From a phage, in sequence record PZ445498.1: DNA of 64,000 nucleotides; one strand, 5' to 3'. The notes beneath the pieces are model-generated. The model did no database searches. It saw only the letters and a program-made list of their open reading frames with translations, and had not been told where the DNA came from. Positions 15,109-63,113 of the stretch are shown piece after piece; the stretch's first letter is position 1; each line of letters begins with the position of its first letter. Made by a program: the position numbers and the translations under genes.

Positions 15109-17954
15109 AGAAAATTCTTGACAGTGCAAGAGAGTATTTAAGAACCAATAATAAAATAAAAACTGCATGCCTTATTACTCTTGAATTGCCAAGCTCTACT
15201 GGATCAAGTTCTGCCTACATATATCTTACAGATTATTTTAGAGATGTAAGATATAATGGGATTCTTTATACATCCGGTAAGGTTAAGTCTATAACAACAC
15301 ATAAACAAAATAGAGATCTTTCCATTGGTAGTCTTTCTTTTACTATCACAGGTACTGCTGAGGATGAAGTATTAAAACTAGTCCAAAATGGTGTATCATT
15401 CCTAGATAGATCCATCTCAATCCATCAAGCGGTTATTGATGAAGAAGGTAACATTCTTCCTGTAGATCCAGACACTAATGGTCCTTTACTTTACTTCCGT
15501 GGTAAAATCACTGGTGGTGGTATTAAGGATAACATTGGTACTTCTGGAATTAGCACATCCACTATCACATGGAACTGTTCGAACCAGTTTTACGACTTTG
15601 ATAGAGTAAACGGACGTTTCACAGACGATGCTGACCATAGGGGACTTGAGATTGTTGCTGGCCAATTAGTTCCATCTAATGGTGCTAAGCGACCTGAATA
15701 TCAAGAGGACTATGGATTCTTCCACGCTAACAAGAGTATTTCTATTCTTGCTAAATATCAGGTTCAGGAAGAGCGTTACAAGTTACAGTCTAAGAAAAAG
15801 TTATTTGGTCTTTCTAGAAGCTATAGCCTAAAGAAATACTATGAGACTGTGACTAAGGAAGTTGACATCGATTTTAACTTAGCGGCTAAGTTCCTTCCAG
15901 TAGTGTATGGAACTCAGAAAATCCCTGGAATCCCCGTATTTGCGGATACTGAGCTGCATAACCCTAATATCGTATATATAGTATACGCCTTCTGTGAGGG
16001 TGAGATTGATGGATTTCTAGATTTCTACTTTGGTGATGTACCAATGATCTGTATTGATCCTAACGATAGTAAGTCTCGTACTTGCTTTGGTACTAAGAAA
16101 GTAGCTGGAGATACCATGCAACGTATTGCTTCTGGCCAATCAAGCTCTGAACCCTCTGTTCATGGACAGGAATATAGGTATAACGATGGTAATGGCGATA
16201 TACGTATCTGGACTTATCATGGTAAAACAGACCAATCTGCTGCGGATGTTCTAGTTAACATTGCAAAAGAGAAAGGTTTCTACCTACAGAACATGAATGA
16301 GAATGGACCAGAATACTGGGACTCTCGTTATAAACTGTTAGATACTGCTTACGCTATTGTTCGATTTACTATTAATGAAAACAGAACAGAAATTCCAGAA
16401 GTTAGCGCTGAAGTTCAGGGTAAGAAGATTAAGATCTATCATTCAGATGGTAGAGTAACTGCTGATAAGACTAGCTTAAATGGTATCTGGCAAACTCTGG
16501 ACTACCTAACCTCTGATCGCTATGGTGCTAATATCACTATTGATCAGTTCCCTCTCCAGCAACTTATTCAAGAAGCAGCTATTCTGGATATAATTGATGA
16601 ATCCTATCAGGTTTCTTGGCAACCCTACTGGAGATACGTTGGATGGACTGATGCTGTAGGAGAGAATAGACAAATAGTTCAAATGAATACTATTCTCGAT
16701 ACCTCTGAGTCAGTATTTAAAAACGTGCAGGGATTAATAGAGTCTTATGGAGGTGCTATCAACAACTTATCTGGTCAGTATAGAATAACTGTTGAGAAGT
16801 TCTCGAATACTCCACTGGAGATTGACTTCTTAGATACCTATGGTGATCTGGAATTGTCAGATACTACTGGCAGAAATAAATTCAACTCAGTACAAGCCTC
16901 TATATTAGATCCTGCATTAAGCTGGAAAACTAACTCCATTACATTCTTTAACTCTATATTTAAAGAACAAGATAAAGGATTAGATAAAAAACTTCAGCTT
17001 TCTTTTGCAAACATCACTAACTATTATACTGCACGTAGCTTTGCAGATAGAGAACTGAAAAAATCTCGTTACTCACGAACTCTCACATTCTCATTACCAT
17101 ATCATTTCATAGGTATTGAGCCTAACGATCCGGTTGCTTTTACATATGGTCGTTATGGTTGGGATAAGAAATACTTCCTAGTTGATGAAGTTGAAAACTC
17201 TAGAGAAGGTAAGATTAATATTACACTGCAAGAGTATGGTGAGGATGTATTCATTAACTCCGAGCAGGTTGATAATAGTGGTAACGATATCCCTGATGTT
17301 AGTAATAACGTACTGCCTCCTAGAGACTTTATGTACACACCAACACCGGGTGGACAAGTAGGATCTATTGGTAAGAATGGTGAGCTATCTTGGCTTCCTA
17401 GCTTAACTAATAACGTTGTTTATTACTCCATCGTTCATTCTGGACATGCTGATCCTTATATCGTACAGCAACTAGAAACTAATCCAAATCTACGAATGAT
17501 CCAAGAAATTATTGGAGAACCTGCTGGTTTAGCAGTCTTTGAGATTAGAGCTGTAGATATTAATGGTAGACGAAGTTCTCCTGTAACACTATCGGTAGAA
17601 CTTAACTCTGCTAAAAACTTAAGCGTCGTTAGTAATTTCAGGGTTACTAACACAGCTTCAGGAGATGCATCGGAGTTTGTAGGACCAGACGTTAAGTTGG
17701 CCTGGGATAGAATTCTAGAAGAAGATATCATTGATGGAATCTTCTACACTCTCGAAATCTACGATAACCTAGATAGTTTATTAAGAAGTGTACGAATTGA
17801 AGATCAGTATGTCTACGATTATCTACTGATATACAATAAGGCAGACTATGCTCTTCATAACGAGGATGCTCTAGGTATTAATAGGAAGTTACGCTTCCGT
17901 ATAAGAGCAGAAGGTGATAATGGCGAGCAATCTGTGGATTGGGCATCTATTTAA
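15105..17954 (+). CDS. baseplate hub protein (pb3-like)
   Basis: 949 aa; follows distal tail protein gene with overlapping start; size matches T5 pb3. Confidence 0.7.
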   Translation: MKKILDSAREYLRTNNKIKTACLITLELPSSTGSSSAYIYLTDYFRDVRYNGILYTSGKVKSITTHKQNRDLSIGSLSFTITGTAEDEVLKLVQNGVSFLDRSISIHQAVIDEEGNILPVDPDTNGPLLYFRGKITGGGIKDNIGTSGISTSTITWNCSNQFYDFDRVNGRFTDDADHRGLEIVAGQLVPSNGAKRPEYQEDYGFFHANKSISILAKYQVQEERYKLQSKKKLFGLSRSYSLKKYYETVTKEVDIDFNLAAKFLPVVYGTQKIPGIPVFADTELHNPNIVYIVYAFCEGEIDGFLDFYFGDVPMICIDPNDSKSRTCFGTKKVAGDTMQRIASGQSSSEPSVHGQEYRYNDGNGDIRIWTYHGKTDQSAADVLVNIAKEKGFYLQNMNENGPEYWDSRYKLLDTAYAIVRFTINENRTEIPEVSAEVQGKKIKIYHSDGRVTADKTSLNGIWQTLDYLTSDRYGANITIDQFPLQQLIQEAAILDIIDESYQVSWQPYWRYVGWTDAVGENRQIVQMNTILDTSESVFKNVQGLIESYGGAINNLSGQYRITVEKFSNTPLEIDFLDTYGDLELSDTTGRNKFNSVQASILDPALSWKTNSITFFNSIFKEQDKGLDKKLQLSFANITNYYTARSFADRELKKSRYSRTLTFSLPYHFIGIEPNDPVAFTYGRYGWDKKYFLVDEVENSREGKINITLQEYGEDVFINSEQVDNSGNDIPDVSNNVLPPRDFMYTPTPGGQVGSIGKNGELSWLPSLTNNVVYYSIVHSGHADPYIVQQLETNPNLRMIQEIIGEPAGLAVFEIRAVDINGRRSSPVTLSVELNSAKNLSVVSNFRVTNTASGDASEFVGPDVKLAWDRILEEDIIDGIFYTLEIYDNLDSLLRSVRIEDQYVYDYLLIYNKADYALHNEDALGINRKLRFRIRAEGDNGEQSVDWASI

Positions 17955-20012
17955 ATGATTTCGAATAATGCACCAGCCAAGATGGTCTTAAATAGTATTA
18001 TGACTGGATATACTATGGCGTATATCCAGCATTCTATCTATACCGACTACGATGTTATCGGTAGATCATTCTGGCTTAAACTTGGCGAAGAAGTGGATAG
18101 AAGAGATTTCACTGGAATCGACACTTTCTTTGTTATGATCAATAACTTAACTCCTTCAACTACCTATCAGGTTCAGGGAGCGTTTTATGACTCAATTATT
18201 GACTCAGAACTTTTAAATGCAAAAATTGGTATTAACCTCTCTAATGAAACTAACTTTAAAACAAAAGAGAAGCCAATAATTGTTGCAGCAAGATCTGAGT
18301 CAGAACCTGTGGATGTTGGGGTGGGCGCACCAATAGTTGTTGTGGAAACAACTGGTGAAGCAAGCTACTGTACTATTGAGTTAAAAAGTACAGCCACTGA
18401 AGACAGTCCATGGACTAAATATTACATTGGGGCTTTAGGTTCTACTATTAAATTTGGTGGAGTTCCTATCGGAGATTATAAGATCAGAATATCTGGTCAA
18501 GTAACTATGCCTGATGGTGTTACAGTTGATTCTTCTGGGTACTATGAGTTTCCTAATATTCTAACTGTAGCCTATAACTTTGTTCCTCCTACTGCACCTA
18601 TCGATATTGTTTTTAAAGCTGCACGAATTGCTGATGGTAAAGAACGATATGATGTTAGAATTGAGTGGGACTGGGAACGTGGTGCTGGTGCTAATGTTCG
18701 TGAGTTCTTGGTTACTTATATAAACTCCGAAGAATACGCTAAAACCGGATGGGCTAAAGCTCAAAAGATAAACGTGGGTGCTGCCAGAGCTGCAACAATT
18801 ATATCATTCCCATGGAAAGTTGAACATACTTTTAAGGTATCATCAATTGCCTGGGGACCAAATAAACAAGATATAACAGAGTCATCTCCTGTAACATTTA
18901 TTCTGAATGAAGATACTCCTCTAGATAATAGTTTTGTCAATGAGACGGGTATTGATGTTAACTATGCCTTTATTAAGGGTAGTATGAAAGATGGGGAAAT
19001 CTGGAGACAAACATTCCTAATTGATGCAGCTACTGGTGCTATTAACATTGGTCTGCTAGATGAAGAAGGTAAAGCACCTATTTCTTTTGACCCTATAAAC
19101 CGTGTTGTTAACGTTGATGGCAAAGTAATTACTAGAGATATTAATGCTGCGAACTTTATCATGACTAACTTGTCTGGTAAAGATAACCCAGCAATTTACA
19201 CTCAAGGTAAATCCTGGGGGGATAATAACTCTGGTATTTGGATGGGTATGGATAATACCTCTGCCAAAGCTAAGTTAGACATTGGTAATGCTACACAATG
19301 GATACGTTATGATGGTACTACTCTGCGTATTTCTAGTGGTGTAGTAATTGGAACACCAAATGGTGACGTAGATATTGGAACTGGTTTACAAGGTAAGCAA
19401 ACAGTATTTGTTTATAAGTTAGCAACATCTTTACCGGCCAAACCGTTAGAACAAGATTATCCACCTCCTGGTTGGTCAAAAACTCCACCTAACCGTACAG
19501 ATATGACACAAAATATCTATGCGACTACAGGTACACTTGATCCAGTTACTAACAAACTTCTTGAAGGTACTAGCTGGTCTGATGTAGTTCAATGGAGTGG
19601 TACTGAAGGTACTATAGGACATGATGGACAGCGTGGTCCTGGGATGTACTCCATGGGTATTCCTGGATTAGGCGGTTGGGATGATGGACAAGCTAACGCA
19701 TTCTTTCAAAATAACTTTGGAAAACCTCCGGTTAAATACGATGTTCTAACACAATTTAACAGTAATGCTCCACAAACAGCATTTACCCGCCAATGGAACG
19801 GGGGTGGATGGATTAACCCTGCAATGGTTCTTCATGGAAACATGATTGTTAATGGAACTGTAACTGCGGATAAGATTGTGGCAGGAAATGCCTTCTTATC
19901 ACAAATAGGTGTTAATATAATCTACGATAGAAATGCTGCGTTATCAGGGAACCCTGAAGCATACTACAAGATGAAGATAGACCTAAATAGTGGGTATATC
20001 CATATAAGGTAA
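17955..20012 (+). CDS. central straight fibre protein (pb4-like)
   Basis: 685 aa; follows hub gene; position and size. Confidence 0.6.
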
Positions 20013-20017
20013 TTATA

Positions 20018-20440
20018 ATGAGTACAGAAAACCGAGTTATTGATATTGTTGTTGATGAGAAAGTGCCTTATAGTCTTATCATGCAATTTATAGATGTTGA
20101 TGACAGTGTATATCCACCAACAGAAGTTCCTGTTAACTTAACCGGATATTCACTCCGAGGAACTATTAAATCTAGTCTAGATGAGAACGCCGAGGTTCTA
20201 GCTAACTTTAAAACTCAAGTTATTAATGCTGCTCAAGGTGCTGCTGCAATTAGTCTTTCCATTGCAGATACTACTAATATTGGTGAAAAAGCATCTAAAG
20301 AACGTGATAAGTATAACCCGAGACAACGTTTTGCTGGTTATTATGATATCCTAATGACTCGTGATGTGATTGGCTCTGAAGTCAATTCTTTCCGTATTAT
20401 GGAAGGTAAAGTATACATCAGTTATGGAGTAACTCAATAA
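20018..20440 (+). CDS. collar protein (p132-like)
   Basis: 140 aa; immediately upstream of the tail fibre gene. Confidence 0.5.
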
Positions 20441-22933
20441 TGGCACTTAAAACAAAAAATTATTGTACAGCAGATTCTTAACATAGATGATACTACAACT
20501 ACTGCTAGTAAATATCCTAAGTATACAGTAGTTTTAGGTACTTCTATTAGTTCTATTACTGCTGGTCAACTAACAGCGGCTGTTGAGGCCTCTGCTGCTT
20601 CTGCTGCGGCAGCAAAAACTTCTGAAATCAATGCAAAAACTTCTGAGACTAACGCTGAAGTTTCAGAGACTAACGCTAAAGCTTCCGAAGTAGCGGCCGC
20701 TACTTCGGCTACGAATGCTGCTACTAGCGAAACTAATGCATTAGCAAGTAAAAATGCTGCTGCTACATCACAAACAGCAGCAAAAACTAGTGAGACTAAT
20801 GCAAAAACTAGTGAGACTAATGCAAAAACTAGTGAGACTAAGGCAAAAACTAGTGAGACTAATGCAAAAACTAGTGAGACTAATGCAAAAACTAGTGAGA
20901 CTAAGGCAGCAGCATATGCAGCAGCAGCAAAAAATAGCGAGACTAATGCTGCCCTATCCGCTGCCTCTGCCTCTGAATCCAAAGGATTCAGAGATGAAGC
21001 AGAAACATTCGCTACACAAGCCTCTACATCAGCATTAGCAGCAAAAAATTCAGAAACTAATGCAAAGACTAGCGAAATTAACTCAAAAGCTAGTGAAGAC
21101 GCTGCTAAGTTAGCTCAACAAGCTGCATCAGGTAGCGCGAGTACTGCTATGCAAGCTGTGACCACAGTACAGAATCTTAAGTCCGACGTTGAGCAGTTAA
21201 AGAGCGACACGCAAACTATTAAAGACGGTGCTGTTGGAGAAATTAATACCGCTAAAACGGATGCAACAACCAGCATTACCCAGTCAAAAGACGCAGCGTT
21301 AACGGCAATAGGAAGTGCTAAATCTAGCGCGATTGGTGGTGTTAACACAGCCAAGGTTGCTGGTGTTAACGCTATTAATACTGCTAAAACTGAATCACTG
21401 AACGCAATGACACCGCTGAAAGAAGCAGCAGAAGATGCTGCGGCTTTAGCTACGCAAAAGGCTACCACAGCTACGGAACAGGCTACGTCGGCTGCTGGTA
21501 GCGCTACAACGGCAAGCGAGAAAGCTACTAACGCTACCAGTGCAGCAGATAGAGCAGAGACAGCGGCTGCATCCGCAGAACAGGTTATGCAAGCGTCTTT
21601 GAAAAAGGACCAGAACCTTAAAGACCTTACTGATAAAAGCGCGGCGCGGGCTACCTTAAACGTGCAAGGCGCAAAATGTATTACTAGCACCGCGCCGGGA
21701 GATTTCAATGCGCTATCTTCACCTGATGACAAACTAAACTTGCTGATTGCTAATAACGGCACCTGGGGTGTACAAAGCGTAGGGGGAGTTGTTAAGCCGT
21801 TAGTTATTGAACGCGGTGGCACAGGTGCAACAAACGTAAGCCAAGCAAGGAATAATCTTGGAATTGGTGAAACTGCTATACCTGTTTTTGGTGGTATTGC
21901 CCTTGATGCTAAAAATAGCACTACATCCGGTATTCTTTATTTAAGAAATAAGAATCCAGAAAGTGTTCAGATTTCATACTCAAGAATCTATAATGAAATT
22001 CAGGGTGGAGTTGCAAAGGCAACTATTCAAGTAACTAGAGAAGGTGAGGACACAAACTATTATCAGTTTGATGAAGCAGGTAACGCATTAAACTACAATA
22101 CAATAACAATAGGTAGGGGTATTGGTAATGCTCTTGGTAGTAATTCTCTTGTTATTGGTGATACTGACACTGGCTTTAAATGGGGTGGTGATGGTATTAT
22201 TCAAATTCATTGCAATAGTAGTAATATTGCTTCTTTTGATGCGAGAAATATGCACCTTAACGGACTTTTAAATATACGGCCTGTTGATAATAACGCTAAC
22301 GGCATTAGAGTTTCAGGAGCTAGAACTGGCGTCGGTAATGCGTTAATTGGTGGTTCAGTTTCTGGGGGTGCTTATATTGCATGGCGCGATAGAGCAACCG
22401 GAATACTCATAGAGGTTCCAAATCCAGATGTTGCTGTAAGCATATTCAAGGCAGTTCAATGGGGTGCTGAGTGGCTTACTGGATTTGATGTAGCAAGATA
22501 TTCATCAGGTACGACTGAATCTAGATTATTTGTTCGTGGTGCCGAATTTACATTCCACGACAATGGAATTGCATCCGCCGCTAACTGGATTAGTACTTCC
22601 GATATTAGGCTGAAGACCCAATTGAAAGAGATTAAAACGGCTAGAGAGAAGGTTAAAGCAATAAAAGGTTACACTTATTTTAAGCGTAATAATATTGATG
22701 AAGATGAACATTCTTTTTATTCTGAAGAAGCTGGTGTAATAGCTCAAGATGTGCAAACCGTTTTGCCCGAGGCTGTCTATAAGATATCTAATAGTGAATA
22801 TTTAGGTGTAAGCTATAGTGGCGTTACTGCTCTCCTAGTTAATGCTTTTAATGAACTCAATGAAGTTGTTGAAAAGCAACAGCAAGAAATTGATGAGCTC
22901 AAAGAATTGGTAAAACAGTTACTTGATAAATAA
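20441..22933 (+). CDS. L-shaped tail fibre protein (pb1-like) with C-terminal intramolecular chaperone domain; apparent frameshift near N-terminus
   Basis: Frame open from 20441 to 22933 (about 830 codons) with no start codon until 21149; ATG at 20440 is in the +1 frame and stops after 13 codons; heptad KTSETNA repeats; C-terminal SDIRLKTQ...autoproteolytic chaperone-like region. Confidence 0.75.
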   Translation, partial: WHLKQKIIVQQILNIDDTTTTASKYPKYTVVLGTSISSITAGQLTAAVEASAASAAAAKTSEINAKTSETNAEVSETNAKASEVAAATSATNAATSETNALASKNAAATSQTAAKTSETNAKTSETNAKTSETKAKTSETNAKTSETNAKTSETKAAAYAAAAKNSETNAALSAASASESKGFRDEAETFATQASTSALAAKNSETNAKTSEINSKASEDAAKLAQQAASGSASTAMQAVTTVQNLKSDVEQLKSDTQTIKDGAVGEINTAKTDATTSITQSKDAALTAIGSAKSSAIGGVNTAKVAGVNAINTAKTESLNAMTPLKEAAEDAAALATQKATTATEQATSAAGSATTASEKATNATSAADRAETAAASAEQVMQASLKKDQNLKDLTDKSAARATLNVQGAKCITSTAPGDFNALSSPDDKLNLLIANNGTWGVQSVGGVVKPLVIERGGTGATNVSQARNNLGIGETAIPVFGGIALDAKNSTTSGILYLRNKNPESVQISYSRIYNEIQGGVAKATIQVTREGEDTNYYQFDEAGNALNYNTITIGRGIGNALGSNSLVIGDTDTGFKWGGDGIIQIHCNSSNIASFDARNMHLNGLLNIRPVDNNANGIRVSGARTGVGNALIGGSVSGGAYIAWRDRATGILIEVPNPDVAVSIFKAVQWGAEWLTGFDVARYSSGTTESRLFVRGAEFTFHDNGIASAANWISTSDIRLKTQLKEIKTAREKVKAIKGYTYFKRNNIDEDEHSFYSEEAGVIAQDVQTVLPEAVYKISNSEYLGVSYSGVTALLVNAFNELNEVVEKQQQEIDELKELVKQLLDK
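20779..20904 (+). repeat. six tandem 21-bp repeats (GCAAAAACTAGTGAGACTAAT/G) encoding KTSETNA heptads
   Basis: Six near-perfect tandem copies read directly from sequence; degenerate copies extend upstream from about 20610. Confidence 0.9.
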
Positions 22934-22973
22934 AAGAAAACCCCAGTGGACAATCCACTGGGGTTTATTATTA
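22932..22973. terminator. bidirectional intrinsic terminator between convergent late and early blocks
   Basis: CCCCAGTGGA-CAAT-TCCACTGGGG 10-bp stem flanked by an A-run upstream and a T-run downstream. Confidence 0.85.
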
Positions 22974-23234
22974 TCTATTTCCGGCAATAACACCTAGATT
23001 AAATACTGCTAACATAGCACGTAAGGTAGGATCTTCCGACTTACTACACAGCTCTACGAAAGCATCTTCATTCCACTCAATTACATTACCATTTCGATCA
23101 ACTTTGAGAACCACATTATTCATGTTAGGTTCTGCAACTGCAACATGATAAGTAGTCGGTTGTTCAAAGCTACCTACCATATTAGGGTCAACAAAATTAC
23201 TTACTTCCTGAGCTTCCAAAGCCACCTTCTCCAC
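22971..23234 (-). CDS. hypothetical protein
   Basis: 87-aa ORF with GTG start preceded by GAGGAGA Shine-Dalgarno. Confidence 0.4.
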   Translation of the reverse strand: MEKVALEAQEVSNFVDPNMVGSFEQPTTYHVAVAEPNMNNVVLKVDRNGNVIEWNEDAFVELCSKSEDPTLRAMLAVFNLGVIAGNR

Positions 23235-23643
23235 GATCAGTCTCCTCTAGTTCGTCAACGATTTCAAAATGATGGGTTGAGTAGTGTGGTAGTACCACTA
23301 GCTGACAAAGTCTCTCGAAATTCTCCAGAGTTTGCATTTCAGAACCGTAGTTAAACAGGTTCATCTTAATAGTACCACGGTAGTCTGAGTCGATCACTCC
23401 TGCGGTATTTGCGATCATTAGTTTACGCTTACCTAAAGAGCTGCGAGGAACTACCAAACCAAACCAACCTCGCGGAATTTCCACCGCGACACCGGTGTCG
23501 ATCATAAGGGATTTGCCTGGTGCAATAGCACGTAAATCTGCCGCAAGGTTAGTACCAAAGAATGCACGCAGATCCATACCTGCGGCATCATCAGAACCAA
23601 TCTTCGGCATGCAATCTGGATGAGTTAGTTTAATTTTAATCAT
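23197..23643 (-). CDS. dut: dUTP diphosphatase
   Basis: 148 aa with trimeric dUTPase motifs AAGMDLRA, RSSLGKR, GVIDSDYRG and C-terminal GGFGSSG. Confidence 0.85.
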   Translation of the reverse strand: MIKIKLTHPDCMPKIGSDDAAGMDLRAFFGTNLAADLRAIAPGKSLMIDTGVAVEIPRGWFGLVVPRSSLGKRKLMIANTAGVIDSDYRGTIKMNLFNYGSEMQTLENFERLCQLVVLPHYSTHHFEIVDELEETDRGEGGFGSSGSK

Positions 23644-24515
23644 TGTCCTGCGATCTCCAAAATATCTTTCGTAAACTTATCTAATACGTCTTGACCCACA
23701 GCAGCAATAGCATCTACACAATAGGTCGGTAAATCAACCAGAATCAGATTTCGGAAAAGCAACTCCTCCGATGCGTTCAGATTCTGTATATATTTCTGTT
23801 TCCCAGGCAGAGGGAGTTGATCAATAATATCCAGAACATTACCAAATTCACGGATAATATTATAACCACGTTTTGCACCGATGCCTTCAACACCACGGAT
23901 GTTATCACCGAGATCTCCCATGATTGCTTTCAGAGAGATAAACTGATCAACATCATCAACGTTGTGGTGTTCATACATATCACGAAGATGGTATTCACGA
24001 CGTGTAGTAAAAGAGAAGCGAGAAACTCGATCTGTCAAGAGAGTATCCCAGTCACCATCGGTAGAGATCAACCAAACGTGATCATAATAATGACCAATGA
24101 GCTTAACAATATAAGCTGCCATATCATCTGCTTCTACACCACGAATAGTGAAGGTTGGAAATGTGGTTTCACACAACTCGAAAGCATCACGAAGATACTC
24201 AAAGAACTGCTCATCTAGTGCTTTCTCTTCTTCTGTACGTTGTGCATACTTTTCGTCACGGTTCCCTTTGTAATCGGGAAGATGTTCTAAACGGAATACA
24301 GACTTTCCTTTATCGCCGAGAACGATTGTAGTTCTAGCTGAATAGGATTTTGCTAAAGATTGAATTGTAGAAACATAACTTGAAGCGAATGGTTTCTTAC
24401 TATTATTATGTTTGAAGCGGAAGCCTAAGTTAGTTCCATCAACAATCATTAGGTTGCGACTAGAAGCCAGCTCAGCTTCTTCCTCTTCAATAAATTTTCC
24501 CCAGGATTTACTCAT
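23640..24515 (-). CDS. flap endonuclease / 5'-3' exonuclease (D15-like)
   Basis: 291 aa; N-terminal MIVDGTNLGFRF, YKGNRDE and GDLGDNIRGVEGIG motifs of the 5'-nuclease family. Confidence 0.85.
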   Translation of the reverse strand: MSKSWGKFIEEEEAELASSRNLMIVDGTNLGFRFKHNNSKKPFASSYVSTIQSLAKSYSARTTIVLGDKGKSVFRLEHLPDYKGNRDEKYAQRTEEEKALDEQFFEYLRDAFELCETTFPTFTIRGVEADDMAAYIVKLIGHYYDHVWLISTDGDWDTLLTDRVSRFSFTTRREYHLRDMYEHHNVDDVDQFISLKAIMGDLGDNIRGVEGIGAKRGYNIIREFGNVLDIIDQLPLPGKQKYIQNLNASEELLFRNLILVDLPTYCVDAIAAVGQDVLDKFTKDILEIAGQ

Positions 24516-24997
24516 TATTTAATTAAGTCCTCAACAGATGCGTGATGTAACCACGGTTCGAATAACCCGATTACGATTTCCATGTCTTTCTTATTTAACA
24601 CCATATGGGTACGACTCATTAAGTTGTCGACCATCGGGTCTGAGCTATCCAAAGCAATTAACCACTGTCCTCTGTCTTTCTTGAATATTAAGGCTGGTTT
24701 GGAGTTCATCTGTTCACCTTCACGGGAACACTGCTGCCACCACTTCTCTAGAGTGGATTCACCAACGTTAAATAAATTACTTGATATGTTATCATCTTTA
24801 TACCACTTAACTTCGAAGCAGTATTTACTAATGTGTCCGCTTTGTGGTGGAAGGTAGATGTCACCCTTCAGTCCATGGCTCTGGCCAAAAGCACCAGAGC
24901 CTGGAACACGTTCCCACTCAAGACCTGTACGTTCACGCAGTATATCTCTTACCTGATATTCACCACGTTTACCTTTCTCTCTACTATCTACGGCCAT
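24515..24997 (-). CDS. hypothetical nuclease-like protein (possible PD-(D/E)xK fold, D14-like)
   Basis: 160 aa; GDIY...FEVKW resembles a D-x(n)-E-x-K nuclease motif; between SbcC-like and flap endonuclease genes. Confidence 0.35.
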   Translation of the reverse strand: MAVDSREKGKRGEYQVRDILRERTGLEWERVPGSGAFGQSHGLKGDIYLPPQSGHISKYCFEVKWYKDDNISSNLFNVGESTLEKWWQQCSREGEQMNSKPALIFKKDRGQWLIALDSSDPMVDNLMSRTHMVLNKKDMEIVIGLFEPWLHHASVEDLIK

Positions 24998-25000
24998 GTT

Positions 25001-26839
25001 TTATTCTAAGTAGGAAAATCCTTCTGCATCTTTTTTGACAGTAATCTTATGGGCTAATGGATGCGTATGCCCATGAGAAACTATGATGGAATTCAGACTA
25101 TCTTCCTCATTTAATAATTCAACGAGGGTATCAAGTCCTTTCGTATCAATAAAGCTAATAACTTCGTCAAGGAACAGAAGATTAATATTAACTTTACTAA
25201 TAGATGTTAACAGCATTCGAATAGCTAACAGAGTTGCTAGGTTAATTCTACTTTGCTGACCAGTAGAGCAGTTCTCCATACTGGTACGGTTCCCCTCATT
25301 GAAGATTACTACTTGTAATTTCGTTTCATCAAGCTCAAATCCAAGTGCGAACTTACCACCCGTCATAATAGAAAGATATTTATTAATCAATTCCTCAAAT
25401 ACTTTCACACTATGCTCTAATTTATATCCTACCAGATTTTTCAATGCAGTGATCAGAATATCAAGATCAGCAACAGCTTCTGATACTCCATCCAGTTTGG
25501 ACGTTATCTCAGACATTTCTGCCTCAGCTTTCTCAATCTGTTCTAGTTTCGCTTTATATTTTGCATTGGCTAATTCGACATTTGCATTATGCTCTTTGGC
25601 AATTGCAACTTTAGAACGGCCATCAGCGATTTCCTGTTCTAATTGTCGGATTTGCACCTGTAGGATCTGCACATTGAGTTCTTCAAAAGAAGCATCACTC
25701 ATTGAATTTTTGAACTCGTCTCTAGCTGCTACTGCCTTATCCAAAGCATCCTTAGTTCTAGTATATGCAGTGTACTCGACTTGTTCTTTCTTCAACTGCT
25801 CTAGTGTAGCTTCAAGAGATTGTTTCTCTTTAAACAGAGGATCATATTCTATTCTAGCCATATCCATTGCTTTTTGAGCAGCAGTTGTATCAAGGTGAGT
25901 ACCACAAGTAGGACATTCAGTATTTGAAGCCTCTTGCTTGAACTTCTGATAACGTTTCTTGACTTCTCCCGCACGTGAGGTAACAATCGTTAGATCACGC
26001 GTAACACTTGAGATCTCTTCAGATTGGTCAGTGGGCGCAAGGAAATTTTTGAAAGGCTCGAAAGATTGTTCGGCAACTTGTACAGCTTTGTCCAAATTAC
26101 GGAGTTTAGTAATATTAGCCTCTTGTGATTTGGCTAATGCCGCCTTAATTTTCGACTCAGTAAGTTCTTGTGCTAACGGTTCTTCATCAAACTCTGGAAC
26201 TTCAACTGGCTCTTGTAAACTTCCGAGATTACCTTTTCCATTGAGGATCTTCGTAATTACAGCCATCTGGCCTTGCAAGTTACTTAACGTACTTGCCACT
26301 TCTTTACGATCAGCCTTAATAGTTTCTGACATCTCTTTATACTGTTCCTGATTAAACAGATTAACAAGAAAAGCTTTACGTGTCGCGTCGGTTGCTTTGA
26401 GGAAGTCTAGATTGGAACCTACAGATTGATAGATCAGTTTAGTGAATGTTTGGAAGTCACCACCCATAATCTCTTCAATCATCTTATATGTTTGGGTTGC
26501 TGTGTGTCCACTGATATCTTCTCCATTCTTAATCAGTGTAACCTTAGCAGTTGATTTAACTACTTTATGCAATTCATACTCATCTTCATCTTTCGAGAAG
26601 TAAGCATGCATATCATACTCTTTCTTCGGAGAACCCCAAGAGAATAAGGCGTCCTTCTTGATACCACGTGAGTTCTTGTTATAAAACAATTCCTCAATAA
26701 CAGTAGCAATAGTGGACTTCCCTAGACCGTTTCCTCCGATTAACTGAGTAACTGGATTCTTATCGAAATGAATTACGATATCCTTACCGTAAGACATAAC
26801 GTTGCTGAATTTTAGTGTCTTAATTATAATCTTTGACAT
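25001..26839 (-). CDS. SbcC/Rad50-like recombination ATPase (D13-like)
   Basis: Walker A GGNGLGKST near N-terminus, long central coiled coil, C-terminal signature/Walker B region LLFLDEVISFID; probable start at the internal ATG 26839 (MSKIIIK). Confidence 0.75.
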   Translation of the reverse strand: MSKIIIKTLKFSNVMSYGKDIVIHFDKNPVTQLIGGNGLGKSTIATVIEELFYNKNSRGIKKDALFSWGSPKKEYDMHAYFSKDEDEYELHKVVKSTAKVTLIKNGEDISGHTATQTYKMIEEIMGGDFQTFTKLIYQSVGSNLDFLKATDATRKAFLVNLFNQEQYKEMSETIKADRKEVASTLSNLQGQMAVITKILNGKGNLGSLQEPVEVPEFDEEPLAQELTESKIKAALAKSQEANITKLRNLDKAVQVAEQSFEPFKNFLAPTDQSEEISSVTRDLTIVTSRAGEVKKRYQKFKQEASNTECPTCGTHLDTTAAQKAMDMARIEYDPLFKEKQSLEATLEQLKKEQVEYTAYTRTKDALDKAVAARDEFKNSMSDASFEELNVQILQVQIRQLEQEIADGRSKVAIAKEHNANVELANAKYKAKLEQIEKAEAEMSEITSKLDGVSEAVADLDILITALKNLVGYKLEHSVKVFEELINKYLSIMTGGKFALGFELDETKLQVVIFNEGNRTSMENCSTGQQSRINLATLLAIRMLLTSISKVNINLLFLDEVISFIDTKGLDTLVELLNEEDSLNSIIVSHGHTHPLAHKITVKKDAEGFSYLE

Positions 26840-27797
26840 ATTTAGCAGCTCTAGCCAAGATTCTATCAATGTCGTCTTGAGACAGCTTTTCAACTTCACG
26901 GAAGTAAAGTTCCAGCTCGCCTAACATATCAAGATCAACAAGATTTAACTTAGCATCTTTAGTAACTCGATGGTTAATCTTTTTATCTAAGAGATCGGAA
27001 TCTTTAATAGACTTTAACTGAACGACGTCACCAGTGACTTCATAAATTACACGGTCATAGTCACTAGGCTCCATTTCCTCACCAACTCCGATTGTTTTAC
27101 GAATCAGTTGAGGTAAGTCACCAAGTTCAATCCATTCTACTTTTAATGTGTCGGTATCAACGATAAAACAACCATTTGTACCTTTTGTGCGTTCTCTGTG
27201 GAACGATGTAGTTAATGGAGATCCTGGATAAAGAAGTCTAGTAGAACCAACAGTTTGACTATTAGTATAAGAATGTAAATCGCCAGCAATTACAGTGTCA
27301 TAACAGTTATACCTCGTTAGATCAATCTCTGGTTTTACATGCGGAGGGATTTCACCACGAACATGCGTGAAACATAGTTTTGATTCAGATGGTTTCCACT
27401 TTGGTTTGTGGATTTCATCATAAGGGATAATATCAAATTCAGGAGAACGATATGGTTTAGTAATGACTTCCCAATTTCCGTTTGTTACTTTATTAATAAC
27501 TCCTGCATAATGATACAGACATGAAATAGTTTTAGTTAACATTTCATGGTTCCCTGTGAAGATCTTGCCTGGATGGTCAAGTCTTGACATGAACTGTTCA
27601 AGAAGTTCTATTTCTTCCGACGATGGGTCGGCAACATCAAGAATATCACCACCAGCAATATGCAGATCACAGTTATGATTATGGAATATGTCATTTAACC
27701 GTTCTCCTAGCATCAGGAAGCGACGCTTCTGCCATTCCTTTGGAACTTTATCTTGTCCTAATTTGATATGATGATCAGCACTAAATAGTATTCTCAT
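26820..27797 (-). CDS. SbcD/Mre11-like nuclease (D12-like)
   Basis: 325 aa; calcineurin-like phosphoesterase motifs MRILFSADHH and TGNHEM. Confidence 0.75.
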   Translation of the reverse strand: MRILFSADHHIKLGQDKVPKEWQKRRFLMLGERLNDIFHNHNCDLHIAGGDILDVADPSSEEIELLEQFMSRLDHPGKIFTGNHEMLTKTISCLYHYAGVINKVTNGNWEVITKPYRSPEFDIIPYDEIHKPKWKPSESKLCFTHVRGEIPPHVKPEIDLTRYNCYDTVIAGDLHSYTNSQTVGSTRLLYPGSPLTTSFHRERTKGTNGCFIVDTDTLKVEWIELGDLPQLIRKTIGVGEEMEPSDYDRVIYEVTGDVVQLKSIKDSDLLDKKINHRVTKDAKLNLVDLDMLGELELYFREVEKLSQDDIDRILARAAKYVKDYN

Positions 27798-29122: not shown

Positions 29123-30458
29123 ATGCAATTTTAGCTAATTGTACTGCTTTCTCCGGAGTCATAGTAATAGTTTTCCATGCATTATTGCGATACACGGCCA
29201 TACGTCCAGAAGCCTGTCTTAAACCAGTACCTCCTTTCATAATTAAATCTACAACAATCGGATCTAGTTTTCCGTCAACAATACGTTGAACGCGACCTGC
29301 TAGCTGTTCTATGAGAGATTCATTATTAATGAGACTTCCCATTATTAAACAAGATAGCTCGTTAAGAGAAATACCTTCTGAGAAGATACTCTGAGCTGCT
29401 GCAAGTACACAAGGTCCGCCCTCCGCTACATCTTTCTGGATTCTCAATCGATCATCCAAAGGAGTTGCACCTATAATCTCATAGGTTGTAACACCACGTT
29501 GTGCGAGAGCTTCTAGTATTGTTTGAATTAGTTCTGTTCTATCACTTACAAAGAGAACCTTATGCCCCATAGACACATATAAATGAGCTAGATTTATAAT
29601 AGTCTCTCGATATTCAGGATGGTTATACACATCGTTAGCACGTAATGCCCACGGTACGTTCTGGTTTCCTGATAACTCAACAGGCACGGAGTACCTATGG
29701 ATTGTGGGTGGAACAGTGTTATTGACAGGCGGACTAAAGATCTTATATCCAAAGAAATCTTTGAACATAACTTGTAGGCCATCTTTACGTTTTAACGTAC
29801 CCGATAAACCAATCTTGTAGCGAGCACACGAGATCTCTAAGAAATTAGTGAAAGTTGTAGCCACACAGTGGTGAACTTCATCAACTATAACAGTACCGAA
29901 CACCTTAGAAAGATTATTCGCATGTTTATTCACGGTTTGTATATTACTGACCACGATTGGTGGATCAATATTATACTTTCCAGAACCTATAATACCAGGC
30001 TCGAATCCAAACCATTTACGAACTTCTGCAGCCCACATTTCCCGTATGGATGTGTTGGTGCAGATTACCAGAGTTTTCTGGCCAAACTTATATGCAAGAG
30101 CTAAAGCTAGGATAGTTTTACCAAATCCGGGCTTACCATTGATAATACAAGTATCATCACACTCTTCATATATAGGGAGTTGATCTTCTTCACGCAGCTT
30201 GAACTGAGGTTCTGGTATTTTTACCGGAGCTAACGTGCGTTTATCAACTAATTCGTATTTTACTCCCTTAGCATCTAGCAAATCCAGACGCGTAATGGGA
30301 ATCCACTTAATCTCTTTAGCAACAACACCACTATTCTTATACATAATAGGGTATTTACTAGTCATTGTCTCGATGTGGTAAGTGGTTTGTTTACTACAAT
30401 AATCCCAGAGTTCATCATCGGGCTTGAAATAGGCTTTATTAGATATAACAACCTTCAT
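29106..30458 (-). CDS. SF2 DNA helicase (D10-like)
   Basis: 450 aa; Walker A GKPGFGKT, DExH box VIVDEVHH, helicase C-terminal motifs. Confidence 0.8.
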   Translation of the reverse strand: MKVVISNKAYFKPDDELWDYCSKQTTYHIETMTSKYPIMYKNSGVVAKEIKWIPITRLDLLDAKGVKYELVDKRTLAPVKIPEPQFKLREEDQLPIYEECDDTCIINGKPGFGKTILALALAYKFGQKTLVICTNTSIREMWAAEVRKWFGFEPGIIGSGKYNIDPPIVVSNIQTVNKHANNLSKVFGTVIVDEVHHCVATTFTNFLEISCARYKIGLSGTLKRKDGLQVMFKDFFGYKIFSPPVNNTVPPTIHRYSVPVELSGNQNVPWALRANDVYNHPEYRETIINLAHLYVSMGHKVLFVSDRTELIQTILEALAQRGVTTYEIIGATPLDDRLRIQKDVAEGGPCVLAAAQSIFSEGISLNELSCLIMGSLINNESLIEQLAGRVQRIVDGKLDPIVVDLIMKGGTGLRQASGRMAVYRNNAWKTITMTPEKAVQLAKIAFGNCS

Positions 30459-41233: not shown

Positions 41234-41467
41234 TTAGGATTCTTTGAGCAAAGAAGCAAGCTCAGCATAGACTTTATCTAACTCAAAGCCAATGCGAAGA
41301 GACACACGAGTCTTCCGTTGTTTAAGTAACCATATGGAGACGTTAGGGATGCCAGCGAGACGAGGTGGTACAACCCTACATAGTTTCTCCGCGGTATCGT
41401 AAACAGAAGTTTTACGTTCTTTTACTGGAAACTTCCTTGTTTCCCACTTTTTATTCTTCACTGTCAT
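41234..41467 (-). CDS. hypothetical protein
   Basis: Start placed at internal ATG (MTVKNKK) preceded by GGGAG. Confidence 0.35.
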   Translation of the reverse strand: MTVKNKKWETRKFPVKERKTSVYDTAEKLCRVVPPRLAGIPNVSIWLLKQRKTRVSLRIGFELDKVYAELASLLKES

Positions 41468-53874: not shown

Positions 53875-53898
53875 ATCTCTATATTAAGGAGATATACT

Positions 53899-54417
53899 GT
53901 GAAACCTCAACTAACAAAAGAATTTCTAGAGAAATATCTAGAACTCAGAGAAGATACTCTCTATTGGAAGCCAAGAGAGACTAATAAAGGTGGATTTAAT
54001 ACTAGATTTGCTGGAAAACCTGTAGGAGCCGTCAATGGAAATGGCTACCTATGCTTCCGACTTAACGTGGAAGGTTATAGATGGGAATTAAGAAATCATG
54101 TAGTAATCTTCTGTCTCTATTATGGATATTACCCAACTAAGACAGTAGACCATAAAGATACAAATAAACTTAATAACCATCCTTTAAATCTACGAGAATC
54201 AACCGATGCTGGTAATGCCCAAAATAGGGGAGCCGGTAAAAACAATACCCATGGACATAAAAACCTAGAGCCTCTTAGTTCAGGAAACTGGAGGGTTAGG
54301 ATAACACACAACGGTACTGTTTACAGATCTTCCGCAATGCCTCTAGAAAAAGCTCTAGAACATAGAGATATTAAACTTAAAGAATTTCATGGCGAATACG
54401 CTAATAATGGAGAATAA
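53899..54417 (+). CDS. HNH homing endonuclease inserted between nrdA and nrdB
   Basis: 172 aa, GTG start after AGGAG; motif GYRWELRNHVVIFCLYYGYYPTKTVDHKDTNKLNNHPLNLR typical of HNH_3-type homing endonucleases. Confidence 0.7.
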   Translation: MKPQLTKEFLEKYLELREDTLYWKPRETNKGGFNTRFAGKPVGAVNGNGYLCFRLNVEGYRWELRNHVVIFCLYYGYYPTKTVDHKDTNKLNNHPLNLRESTDAGNAQNRGAGKNNTHGHKNLEPLSSGNWRVRITHNGTVYRSSAMPLEKALEHRDIKLKEFHGEYANNGE

Positions 54418-61199: not shown

Positions 61200-61251
61200 T
61201 AGACTGTTTTTTAAAACAAATTCAAATCTCAAACTTCATATAAGGAAGCAA

Positions 61252-62655: not shown

Positions 62656-63105
62656 ATGAAGGCAGCTTTGCTTTTAATAGCTGCCCTAACCTATAGCTTC
62701 AATAGTCATGCGACCTACGACTCAAAGCAGATTGATTGCATTGCAAAAAATATCTACTTCGAAGCACGAGGTGAGGGCACTAAAGGAATGATCGCAGTTG
62801 CACAGGTTACTAAAAACCGTGTTAACTCTGGTACTTTTCCTGATTCTTACTGTAAAGTAGTATATCAGTCTAACCAGTTCTCTTGGGTGGCCAAGAGACC
62901 AAAAGTTGATAAAACCGATGAGGCTTGGCAAGTTGCTAAGAATTTAGCTAGAGTGATATACTACGTTGATTTACCACAAGATCCAACACATGGAGCGTTA
63001 TACTTCCATAGTGGTAAAGATAAACCGTACTGGACAAAGAAGTTTAAGAAAACAACGAAGATTCAAGGCCATACGTTTTACAAGCCTGTGGTTAAGAAAA
63101 CTTAA
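62656..63105 (+). CDS. SleB-like cell wall hydrolase with N-terminal signal peptide
   Basis: Start at ATG 62656 (MKAALLLIAALTYSFNSHA signal-like); Hydrolase_2 pattern NIYFEARGE...AVAQVTKNR...GALYFHS. Confidence 0.6.
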   Translation: MKAALLLIAALTYSFNSHATYDSKQIDCIAKNIYFEARGEGTKGMIAVAQVTKNRVNSGTFPDSYCKVVYQSNQFSWVAKRPKVDKTDEAWQVAKNLARVIYYVDLPQDPTHGALYFHSGKDKPYWTKKFKKTTKIQGHTFYKPVVKKT

Positions 63106-63113
63106 AAAATTCG

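What the first reader, a model, noticed from the sequence alone, without database searches (positions are those of the whole stretch)
20438..20482. L-shaped tail fibre gene appears frameshifted at an A6 run, six codons after its start
The ATG at 20440 (overlapping the stop of the collar gene) opens a frame that reads MALKTK and then stops after 13 codons. The long fibre frame (20441-22933, about 830 codons, KIIVQQILNIDDTTTTASKYPKYTVVL...) has no start codon for its first 236 codons. Deleting one A from the run at 20454-20459 joins the two into one continuous protein, MALKTKIIVQQ..., which matches the N-terminus I recall for T5 pb1. This is therefore either a homopolymer sequencing/assembly error, a genuine inactivating mutation of the dispensable side fibres (fibre-less T5 variants are known), or a site of slippage.
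Basis: partly seen in the sequence, partly recalled or inferred. Interest (0 to 1): 0.6.

Follow-up and report, generated by a model that had tools for sequence, protein, structure and literature searches.

The report
Frameshifted side-fibre gene in T5-like phage
This T5-like (Epseptimavirus) phage has one extra A six codons into its side tail-fibre gene; the extra base also appears in an independent re-assembly of the raw reads, so the phage most likely lost its dispensable side fibres, which is a well-known kind of event.

Summary
The ATG at 20440 overlaps the collar gene's stop (TAATG) and reads [13 protein letters not shown], then stops. An A6 run sits at 20454-20459. The 830-codon fibre frame (20441-22933) has no ATG, GTG or TTG for its first 236 codons. 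Removing one A gives MALKTKIIVQQILNIDD..., which is the exact N-terminus of 41 homologue clusters and of the solved DT57C LtfA (PDB 8hqz).

All relatives inspected have one base fewer here, either A5 or TAAAA. No public collection searched holds an A6 copy.

This is not an assembly artefact. A Logan re-assembly of run SRR27112537 matches the window 100% over 16018-20808 and carries A6. The fibre gene is the only coding sequence in the window with a frame-breaking indel relative to phage bobsandoy. The other net frame-changing indels are all intergenic.

Nothing supports programmed recoding. The site is in frame in every relative, no RNA structure or Rfam element was found, and A6 is short.

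Most likely this is a recent, genuine A5-to-A6 insertion that abolishes the side fibres, comparable to the stf frameshift of laboratory lambda and to fibre-less T5-like mutants. A systematic read-level error remains a minor alternative. It matters for annotation and host-range prediction, but it is not novel biology.

The parts
17955..20012 (+). Central straight fibre gene (pb4 homologue), upstream neighbour
   Evidence: Pfam PB4 Fn3-I, Fn3-II, Fn3-III and PB4_spike, E down to 9e-199. Same position as in S114 and bobsandoy.
20018..20440 (+). Collar gene (LtfC/p132, 140 aa), the ring to which the side fibres attach. Its TAA stop (20438-20440) overlaps the fibre ATG. It carries the rare substitution D136Y (GAT to TAT, base 20423).
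   Evidence: Pfam PF23926 LtfC, 54 bits. 119 homologue clusters. Position 136 is D in 115 of 118 other clusters.
20426..20429 (+). GGAG Shine-Dalgarno-like motif 10 nt upstream of the fibre ATG
   Evidence: Read directly from the sequence. GGAG or GGGG occupies this position in all 14 relatives examined. Its function is inferred.
20440..20481 (+). Conserved fibre start codon, now opening only a 13-codon ORF (MALKTK, then out-of-frame NYCTADS and a stop)
   Evidence: Relatives read MALKTKIIVQQ from the same ATG.
20454..20459 (+). A6 run, the site of the one-base insertion. Relatives have AAAAA or TAAAA here.
   Evidence: Alignments. 59 of 59 full-length rows sampled from 457 matching phage records are shorter by 1 base modulo 3. 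The same A6 is in Logan contig SRR27112537_0.
20459..22933 (+). Body of the side-fibre gene (codons 7-830 of the repaired protein), intact but cut off from its start codon
   Evidence: Open frame. 3494 homologues at E <= 0.001. dN/dS 0.25-0.40 against four relatives.
20780..20908 (+). Array of 21-bp tandem repeats (6.1 copies, KTSETNA heptads) in the fibre shaft
   Evidence: TRF score 244. These are the only repeated 31-mers in the window. The Logan contig ends here.
21149..21151 (+). First in-frame start codon of the long frame (ATG, codon 237). A gene caller would start a 594-aa 'tail fibre' here.
   Evidence: No Shine-Dalgarno motif at a usable distance. That 594-aa product is not on record in the gene-position collection.
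22598..22780 (+). C-terminal intramolecular chaperone domain (Peptidase_S74), complete
   Evidence: Pfam PF13884, 49 bits, profile positions 1-58 of 58.
22938..22966 (.). 13-bp-stem hairpin between the fibre stop and the convergent minus-strand genes. It scans as a terminator on both strands, so the fibre gene appears to be the last gene of its unit.
   Evidence: Terminator scan. ORF map.

Best explanation
The DNA that was sequenced really carries a one-base insertion (A5 to A6) in codons 6-7 of the lateral (L-shaped) tail fibre gene of an Epseptimavirus, a T5-like phage.

Ribosomes that start at the conserved ATG make a 13-residue peptide and terminate. The 824 downstream codons have no usable start. 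Even if the internal ATG at 21149 were used, the product would lack the N-terminal ~40 residues, which in DT57C insert as beta-strands into the LtfC collar.

The stock is therefore expected to be side-fibre-less, or nearly so. It would adsorb through its receptor-binding tip protein alone.

The lesion is recent, because the rest of the gene is intact and shows purifying selection. It most likely arose by replication slippage in the A run. It was probably tolerated or favoured during propagation on a host where the fibres are dispensable. It should revert readily from A6 to A5.

Shown here: the insertion, its uniqueness, its presence in the read k-mers, and the intact remainder of the gene. Inferred: the absence of fibres on virions, and how the mutation arose and became the majority allele in the stock.
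For: 1. The lesion is derived and unique.
   - Close relatives read AAAAC-AAAAA-TT (GRNsp8, NCBI contig AAOGDZ010000015, ERR13714557/8) or AAAAC-TAAAA-TT (S114, bobsandoy, nine IMG/VR contigs).
   - All 59 full-length rows sampled evenly from 457 matching phage records are shorter by 1 base modulo 3.
   - Pattern scans of IMG/VR and JGI metagenomes found only the shorter form; the representative-genome scan found no copy at all.
2. It is not an assembler artefact.
   - Logan contig SRR27112537_0 is 100% identical to window 16018-20808, A6 included.
   - Contig _10 is 100% identical to window 22460-27234.
3. The assembly is not prone to homopolymer errors.
   - Against bobsandoy, the fibre gene is the only coding sequence with an uncompensated frame-changing indel across 64 kb.
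   - About nine other net frame-changing indels all lie between genes (37762, 39695, 41165, 44727, 53883, 61207, 62056, 63104, 63166). This is the pattern left by selection, not by random error (using the annotation).
4. The one hit is in a gene reported to be dispensable and often lost.
   - About 30% of DT571/2 clones grown on E. coli C600 had spontaneously lost fibre function (PMC4728585).
   - A paper titled for the dispensability of T5's L-shaped tail fibres (Saigo 1978) and the stf frameshift of laboratory lambda are cited in PMC12617516.
5. The gene was functional until recently. It has 830 open codons, against 43 and 135 stops in the other two frames. dN/dS is 0.25-0.40. The S74 chaperone domain is complete.
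6. There should be no polar cost, because the fibre gene is followed directly by a strong hairpin and convergent genes.
7. The N-terminus is needed for attachment. The repaired residues 1-33 are identical to DT57C LtfA in PDB 8hqz. In DT57C the N-terminal region before the helix that starts at T40 donates beta-strands to the LtfC ring (PMC10713586).
Against: - I could not see the reads, their platform or the allele fractions. The Logan contigs come from the same run that probably produced the deposited genome, so a systematic read-level homopolymer miscall would appear in both.
- No virion or phenotype data are available.
- The fibre gene holds 18 of the window's 196 homopolymer runs of 5 or more (9%). 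A single random homopolymer error landing there is therefore not very improbable.
- The isolation and propagation host is unknown. If it is a smooth Salmonella strain, a fibre-less phage might be expected to plate poorly.
Confidence: 0.78

Rival explanations
1. Read-level sequencing error. The phage has A5 and an intact fibre gene, and the platform systematically over-called the homopolymer, so both the deposited consensus and the Logan k-mer assembly read A6.
For: - The lesion lies in a homopolymer, the classic site of such errors.
- The gene is otherwise perfect, as expected if nothing is really wrong.
- Other records in this family carry flagged frameshifts. The GRNsp8 fibre gene is annotated 'frameshifted'. 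The authors of PMC10713586 suspect a frameshift error in the T5 reference LtfC.
- Both assemblies derive from one run.
Against: - No other coding sequence in 64 kb is frame-broken, although the window has 196 runs of 5 or more and 27 runs of 6.
- I infer the reads are accurate, because error-rich reads would be unlikely to give ~10-kb k=31 de Bruijn contigs that match the deposit 100% over 9.5 kb.
- A majority over-call of A5 as A6 is not, to my knowledge, a typical systematic error of accurate short reads.
- The only affected gene is the one structural gene known to be dispensable.
Confidence: 0.15
2. Recoding. The A6 run is a working slippage site, either +1 ribosomal frameshifting on A-AAA-AAT or loss of one A by RNA polymerase. 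Full-length fibre would then still be made at a useful level.
For: - After AAA (20455-20457), re-pairing of the Lys tRNA on AAA one base ahead is perfect and leads straight into ATT ATT GTA.
- From general knowledge, A runs are known sites of transcriptional slippage.
Against: - The site is in frame in every relative, so no shift is conserved.
- The flanking RNA is no more structured than shuffled sequence (z = +0.64).
- No Rfam frameshift element was found.
- No internal Shine-Dalgarno motif, rare codon or stop codon sits at the site.
- By general knowledge, efficient transcriptional slippage needs runs of about 8-9 or more. The window has no run longer than 6.
- The DT57C authors argue that the entanglement of nine fibre chains with the collar excludes an incomplete fibre number (PMC10713586), so rare shift events should not dress the particles.
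Confidence: 0.03
3. An alternative product rescues function. This could be a 594-aa fibre started at ATG 21149. It could also be a collar-fibre fusion made by read-through of the collar TAA, because after the insertion the fibre frame is the collar's own frame.
For: - ORF 21149-22933 exists.
- The collar frame (20018...) and the long fibre frame (20441...) are the same frame, separated only by TAA 20438-20440.
Against: - No Shine-Dalgarno motif sits at a usable distance from 21149.
- That product lacks residues 1-236, including the collar-binding strands and the start of the trimerising helix (PMC10713586; PDB 8hqz match).
- By general knowledge, TAA read-through in enterobacteria without an ochre suppressor is very rare. 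No tRNA gene lies in the window.
- The shared frame has a one-in-three chance of arising by coincidence.
Confidence: 0.02

Closest known systems
Laboratory lambda (PaPa) stf frameshift, compared with Ur-lambda
   Same: A frameshift in an otherwise intact side tail-fibre gene removes dispensable fibres that speed up adsorption, and the phage remains viable (PMC12617516).
   Different: Different phage family and a non-homologous fibre. In lambda the loss of fibres is experimentally established, whereas here it is inferred from sequence.
Fibre-less T5 and T5-like mutants: Saigo 1978 for T5, spontaneous LTF-less clones and ltfA amber mutants of DT57C and DT571/2
   Same: Same gene family and same collar-attachment system. 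Fibres were dispensable on rough hosts but needed on the O-antigen-bearing hosts tested. About 30% of DT571/2 clones on C600 had spontaneously lost fibre function (PMC4728585; Saigo 1978 as cited).
   Different: - The spontaneous DT57C mutant described was a 3-bp in-frame deletion, and the engineered ones were amber or opal. Here the lesion is a +1 insertion in an A run at codons 6-7.
- This phage has a single-gene fibre with an S74 chaperone, not the branched LtfA/LtfB arrangement.
Intact Epseptimavirus lateral tail fibre genes (S114, bobsandoy, GRNsp8, cott162) and DT57C LtfA (PDB 8hqz)
   Same: Same synteny (pb4, collar, fibre), the same TAATG start overlap, and an identical first 30-33 residues once the extra A is removed.
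   Different: - Those genes are in frame.
- The window's allele is a new mosaic. The best full-length protein match is 64% identical.
- The last ~900 nt of the gene are only ~80% identical at DNA level to the nearest record.
Frameshifts in T5-family database records that are attributed to error
   Same: Single-base frame breaks in the fibre or collar genes. The GRNsp8 fibre gene is annotated 'frameshifted'. The T5 reference LtfC is split into gp135/136, and the DT57C authors suggest this is a sequencing error (PMC10713586).
   Different: Here the extra base is reproduced by an independent re-assembly of the raw reads.

Membership tests
T5-family lateral (L-shaped) tail fibre, pb1/LtfA | N-terminal collar-binding segment homologous to pb1/LtfA | tested here: met
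   The repaired residues 1-33 are identical to DT57C LtfA in PDB 8hqz, E 8.5e-32 over residues 1-120. 41 homologue clusters share the exact first 30 residues.
T5-family lateral (L-shaped) tail fibre, pb1/LtfA | Gene lies directly downstream of pb4 and the LtfC/p132 collar gene | tested here: met
   Pfam assignments for the two upstream genes. Same gene order in S114 and bobsandoy.
T5-family lateral (L-shaped) tail fibre, pb1/LtfA | C-terminal intramolecular chaperone (Peptidase_S74) | tested here: met
   PF13884, 49 bits, full profile length.
T5-family lateral (L-shaped) tail fibre, pb1/LtfA | Continuous reading frame from the conserved ATG, so that a functional gene is present | tested here: not met
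   The +1 insertion at 20454-20459 brings a stop after 13 codons. By descent this is a fibre gene. As written, it is a pseudogene.
Programmed frameshift or transcriptional slippage site | The out-of-frame arrangement is conserved among relatives | tested here: not met
   All relatives examined are in frame.
Programmed frameshift or transcriptional slippage site | Slippery motif together with a stimulator (structure, Shine-Dalgarno motif, slow codon) or a long homopolymer | tested here: not met
   Only an A6 run is present. The fold z-score is +0.64. No Rfam match above threshold. No stimulatory motif is seen in the sequence.
Programmed frameshift or transcriptional slippage site | Measurable shifted product | not testable with these tools
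   Needs a reporter assay or virion mass spectrometry.
Loss of side fibres by mutation (lambda PaPa stf type, fibre-less T5-like mutants) | A small lesion in an otherwise intact, recently functional side-fibre gene | tested here: met
   A single extra A. 830 codons are otherwise open, dN/dS is 0.25-0.40, and the domains are complete.
Loss of side fibres by mutation (lambda PaPa stf type, fibre-less T5-like mutants) | The lesion is present in the phage DNA and not only in the consensus sequence | tested here: inconclusive
   An independent k-mer re-assembly of run SRR27112537 has A6. Read counts, platform and strand balance could not be seen.
Loss of side fibres by mutation (lambda PaPa stf type, fibre-less T5-like mutants) | Virions lack the fibres and adsorb more slowly, or fail on hosts bearing O-antigen | not testable with these tools
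   Needs electron microscopy, SDS-PAGE or mass spectrometry, and adsorption assays.
Homopolymer sequencing or assembly artefact | Other coding sequences in the same assembly are also frame-broken at homopolymers | tested here: not met
   None across 64 kb against bobsandoy. The other net frame-changing indels are all intergenic.
Homopolymer sequencing or assembly artefact | The lesion disappears when the reads are re-assembled independently | tested here: not met
   Logan contig SRR27112537_0 keeps A6 and matches the window 100% over 4791 bp.

The most novel reading that the evidence does not exclude
The short A run just after the fibre start codon acts as a reversible on/off switch. A5/A6 slippage during replication would keep a phage population mixed between fibre-bearing and fibre-less particles. 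Alternatively, low-level +1 recoding at A6 would give a small fibre-bearing fraction. Either way the phage would hedge between rough hosts and hosts bearing O-antigen.

The evidence does not exclude this. GRNsp8 and three sequence-database contigs (the NCBI contig AAOGDZ010000015 and the two ERR13714557/8 contigs) carry A5 at this spot, while most relatives examined break the run with a T. Allele fractions in the reads were not visible.
Probability: 0.04. Interest if true: 0.6.

Novelty: new member of a known kind. Interest (0 to 1): 0.2.

Why it matters
The importance is practical.

- **Annotation:** automatic annotation will either call a 594-aa 'tail fibre protein' from the internal ATG or silently 'repair' the gene. 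Either choice hides the fact that this stock probably has no side fibres.
- **Host range:** in T5-like phages these fibres bind O-antigen. In the DT57C/DT571/2 experiments they decided whether O-antigen-bearing strains could be infected at all. Host-range predictions, therapeutic cocktail design and receptor studies based on this genome would therefore be misled.
- **Fibre tip:** the gene carries a new mosaic receptor-binding tip. A revertant would be needed to study its specificity.
- **Selection:** it is one more example that side fibres are lost readily during propagation. It opens no new question.

Tried and rejected
- **Finding the phage record or an intact copy of this fibre allele.** None was found.
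  - No phage record covers 80% or more of the gene.
  - The best protein match is 64% identical.
  - The 594-aa internal-start product is not on record.
- **A second broken fibre gene.** Homologue P0056 (607 aa, starting at the homologous internal Met) looked like one. Its contig has an intact 951-aa ORF with A5, so it was only a short gene call.
- **Exact-pattern scans for A6.** IMG/VR and JGI metagenome scans gave only the one-base-shorter form; the representative-genome scan found no copy at all.
- **A link between collar D136Y and fibre loss.** The substitution lies 31 nt upstream of the run. D is present in 115 of 118 other clusters. However, the only other carrier of Y (ERR13714557/8) has A5 and an intact fibre start, so the link is rejected.
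- **Recoding signals.** No RNA structure beyond shuffled sequence, no Rfam frameshift family, and no tRNA in the window.
- **Literature on run SRR27112537.** No paper mentions it.
- **A non-canonical ATT start at 20459.** Rejected, because it lies 29 nt from the only Shine-Dalgarno-like motif.
Full report
**What the window is.** The window is the left 64 kb of an Epseptimavirus genome (T5-like, Demerecviridae). It runs from the terminase gene through the head and tail genes into the replication genes.
- It is about 96% identical over long stretches to Salmonella phages such as bobsandoy, STK8t, UTK0010 and 1-29.
- It is not itself in the phage collection. No record covers 80% or more of the fibre gene.
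- Around the finding the gene order is pb4 straight fibre (17955-20012), LtfC/p132 collar (20018-20440), then the lateral tail fibre gene. This rests on Pfam and on the annotation of S114 and bobsandoy.

**The observation.**
- The collar stop and fibre start overlap as TAATG at 20438-20442.
- The ATG frame reads [13 protein letters not shown] and stops at 20479-20481.
- The A run is exactly six bases, 20454-20459.
- The frame from 20441 is open to 22933. Its first ATG, GTG or TTG is at 21149, codon 237.
- Removing one A gives an 830-aa protein starting MALKTKIIVQQILNIDDTTTTASKYPKYTV.
- The other two frames of this stretch hold 43 and 135 stops, so the open frame is not a matter of chance.

**The lesion is derived and unique.**
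- A 181-bp probe across the site matched 457 phage records. In all 59 full-length rows sampled evenly down the ranking, the relative is shorter by one base. The T5-like group, which also lacks one codon, is shorter by four.
- Base-level alignments show AAAAC-AAAAA-TT in GRNsp8, in NCBI contig AAOGDZ010000015 and in two ERR13714557/8 contigs. They show AAAAC-TAAAA-TT in S114, bobsandoy, nine IMG/VR contigs and one metagenome contig.
- Of the two exceptions, one (P0041) is named as a partial protein by its source. The other (P0056) proved to be a short gene call on an intact 951-aa ORF.
- Scans of IMG/VR and of JGI metagenomes with a pattern that accepts either length returned only the shorter form; the representative-genome scan returned no copy at all.

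**Artefact or real?** Three lines of evidence bear on this.
1. *An independent re-assembly agrees.*
   - The exact collar protein occurs on only one contig in the gene-position collection, Logan contig SRR27112537_0.
   - That contig is 100% identical to window 16018-20808 and carries A6.
   - A second contig of the same run is 100% identical to window 22460-27234.
   - Logan assembles raw SRA reads with a k-mer graph, so A6 is the abundant allele in the reads. It was not introduced by the depositor's assembler or polisher.
   - Contig _0 ends inside the 21-bp tandem repeat array, which holds the only repeated 31-mers in the window. The break there is therefore expected.
2. *The assembly is not error-prone.*
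   - A full indel scan against bobsandoy, plus a protein-level frame check of 138 relative ORFs, found no other coding sequence with a net frame change.
   - About nine other net frame-changing indels all lie between genes. Several are in homopolymers, such as T6 at 61207 and A6 at 63104.
   - Random errors would fall mostly in coding DNA. This distribution is what selection leaves behind.
3. *The single hit is in a dispensable gene.*
   - The fibre gene is the one large structural gene reported to be dispensable and frequently lost.
   - Golomidova et al. found that about 30% of DT571/2 clones grown on C600 had spontaneously lost fibre function (PMC4728585).
   - A 1978 paper on the dispensability of T5's L-shaped fibres (Saigo) and the stf frameshift of laboratory lambda are cited in PMC12617516.

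The caveat is that both assemblies derive from one run, and I could not see its platform or pile-ups. I put a genuine mutation at about 0.78 and a systematic read-level miscall at about 0.15.

**Consequence.**
- Translation from the conserved ATG ends after 13 codons.
- The downstream frame has no start until 21149, and that ATG has no Shine-Dalgarno motif at a usable distance.
- Its product would lack residues 1-236.
- In the DT57C tail-tip structure, the residues before the trimerising helix (which starts at T40) form beta-strands that extend the LtfC sheets and build a lasso-like ring of nine chains (PMC10713586).
- The repaired N-terminus is identical to that LtfA over residues 1-33 (PDB 8hqz).
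- A truncated product therefore could not attach, and the stock should be fibre-less.
- The gene is followed at once by a 13-bp-stem hairpin (22938-22966) and convergent genes, so no polar damage to essential genes is expected.
- The gene is otherwise intact. Its S74 chaperone domain is complete and dN/dS is 0.25-0.40 against four relatives. The lesion is therefore recent and should revert easily.

**Recoding.** I found no support for it.
- The site is in frame in all relatives.
- The flanking RNA is no more stable than shuffled sequence (z = +0.64).
- No Rfam frameshift family matches.
- No stimulatory Shine-Dalgarno motif, rare codon or stop sits at the site.
- A6 is the longest run class in the whole window, and by general knowledge it is well below the lengths that give efficient transcriptional slippage.
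- One curiosity: after the insertion the fibre frame is the same as the collar frame, separated only by the collar's TAA. Ochre read-through would therefore give a collar-fibre fusion. This has a one-in-three chance of being coincidence, and I give it very little weight.

**Comparison and verdict.**
- By descent this is a T5-family lateral tail fibre gene. Its N-terminal domain, synteny and chaperone domain all meet the family features. It fails the test of an intact reading frame, so as written it is a pseudogene.
- Functionally it belongs with the known cases of side-fibre loss by small mutation: the stf frameshift of laboratory lambda, the fibre-less T5 mutants, and the spontaneous LTF-less DT57C and DT571/2 clones.
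- It is a new instance of a known kind, with low novelty. It matters for annotation and for any host-range inference drawn from this genome.
- The fibre allele is a new mosaic. The best protein match is 64% identical. The last ~900 nt of the gene are only ~80% identical at DNA level to the nearest record.

Noticed in passing
window 20423 (collar codon 136, 20423-20425): The collar protein has Tyr where 115 of 118 other homologue clusters have Asp (ISYGVTQ instead of ISDGVTQ), 31 nt upstream of the A run. The only other carrier (Logan ERR13714557/8, 96% identical collar) has A5 and an intact fibre start. The substitution is therefore a rare natural variant and is not tied to fibre loss.
   Followed up: yes
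window 20438-20441: After the insertion, the long fibre frame is the same frame as the collar gene, separated only by the collar's TAA. Read-through would produce a collar-fibre fusion. This is probably coincidence.
   Followed up: partly
window 22460 (end of Logan contig SRR27112537_10): The re-assembled contig stops inside the fibre's C-terminal region at a place with no repeat of 20 nt or more elsewhere in the window. Possible causes are a repeat shared with the unseen part of the genome, a coverage dip, or heterogeneity in the fibre tip within the stock. This is unexplained.
   Followed up: partly
window 20780-20908: Six nearly perfect 21-bp tandem repeats (KTSETNA heptads) lie in the fibre shaft. 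Copy number and arrangement differ between relatives, and bobsandoy's authors annotate repeat regions in the same gene.
   Followed up: partly
window 22000-22933: The last ~900 nt of the fibre gene, including the S74 chaperone domain, are only ~80% identical at DNA level to the nearest phage record (STK8t, KFSSM, PECP14). This looks like a new fibre allele of unknown specificity.
   Followed up: partly
window 29133/29134, 41236-41312, 53893-54416, 62253: Homing/HNH endonuclease genes present in bobsandoy are absent from the window at 29134 and 62253. They are replaced by non-aligning sequence at 41236-41312 and at 53893-54416. This is the usual presence/absence mosaic of T5-like phages.
   Followed up: no
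window 41165, 61207-61212, 63104-63109, 63166: Single-base length differences from bobsandoy, several in homopolymers (T6 versus T5, A6 versus A5). All lie between genes or just past a stop codon.
   Followed up: yes
window 20519-20796, minus strand: A sub-threshold Rfam match to the Salmonella sRNA isrG (29 bits against a gathering score of 100, E 3.8e-5), lying across the Ala/Ser/Thr-rich repeat region of the fibre gene. It is probably a composition or repeat artefact.
   Followed up: no
L004 17828-17902 (phage bobsandoy, just beyond the region matching the window's end): ARAGORN reports a tRNA-like gene with an abnormal anticodon loop (tRNA-???, 'aa'), which the record annotates as tRNA-OTHER. 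The matching region of this phage lies outside the window.
   Followed up: no
L001 1941-4816 (Salmonella phage GRNsp8): The closest relative at the fibre's 5' end has its own fibre gene annotated as 'frameshifted, insertion/deletion at around 30155', near the 3' end. This is another broken or mis-sequenced fibre gene in the same genus.
   Followed up: no
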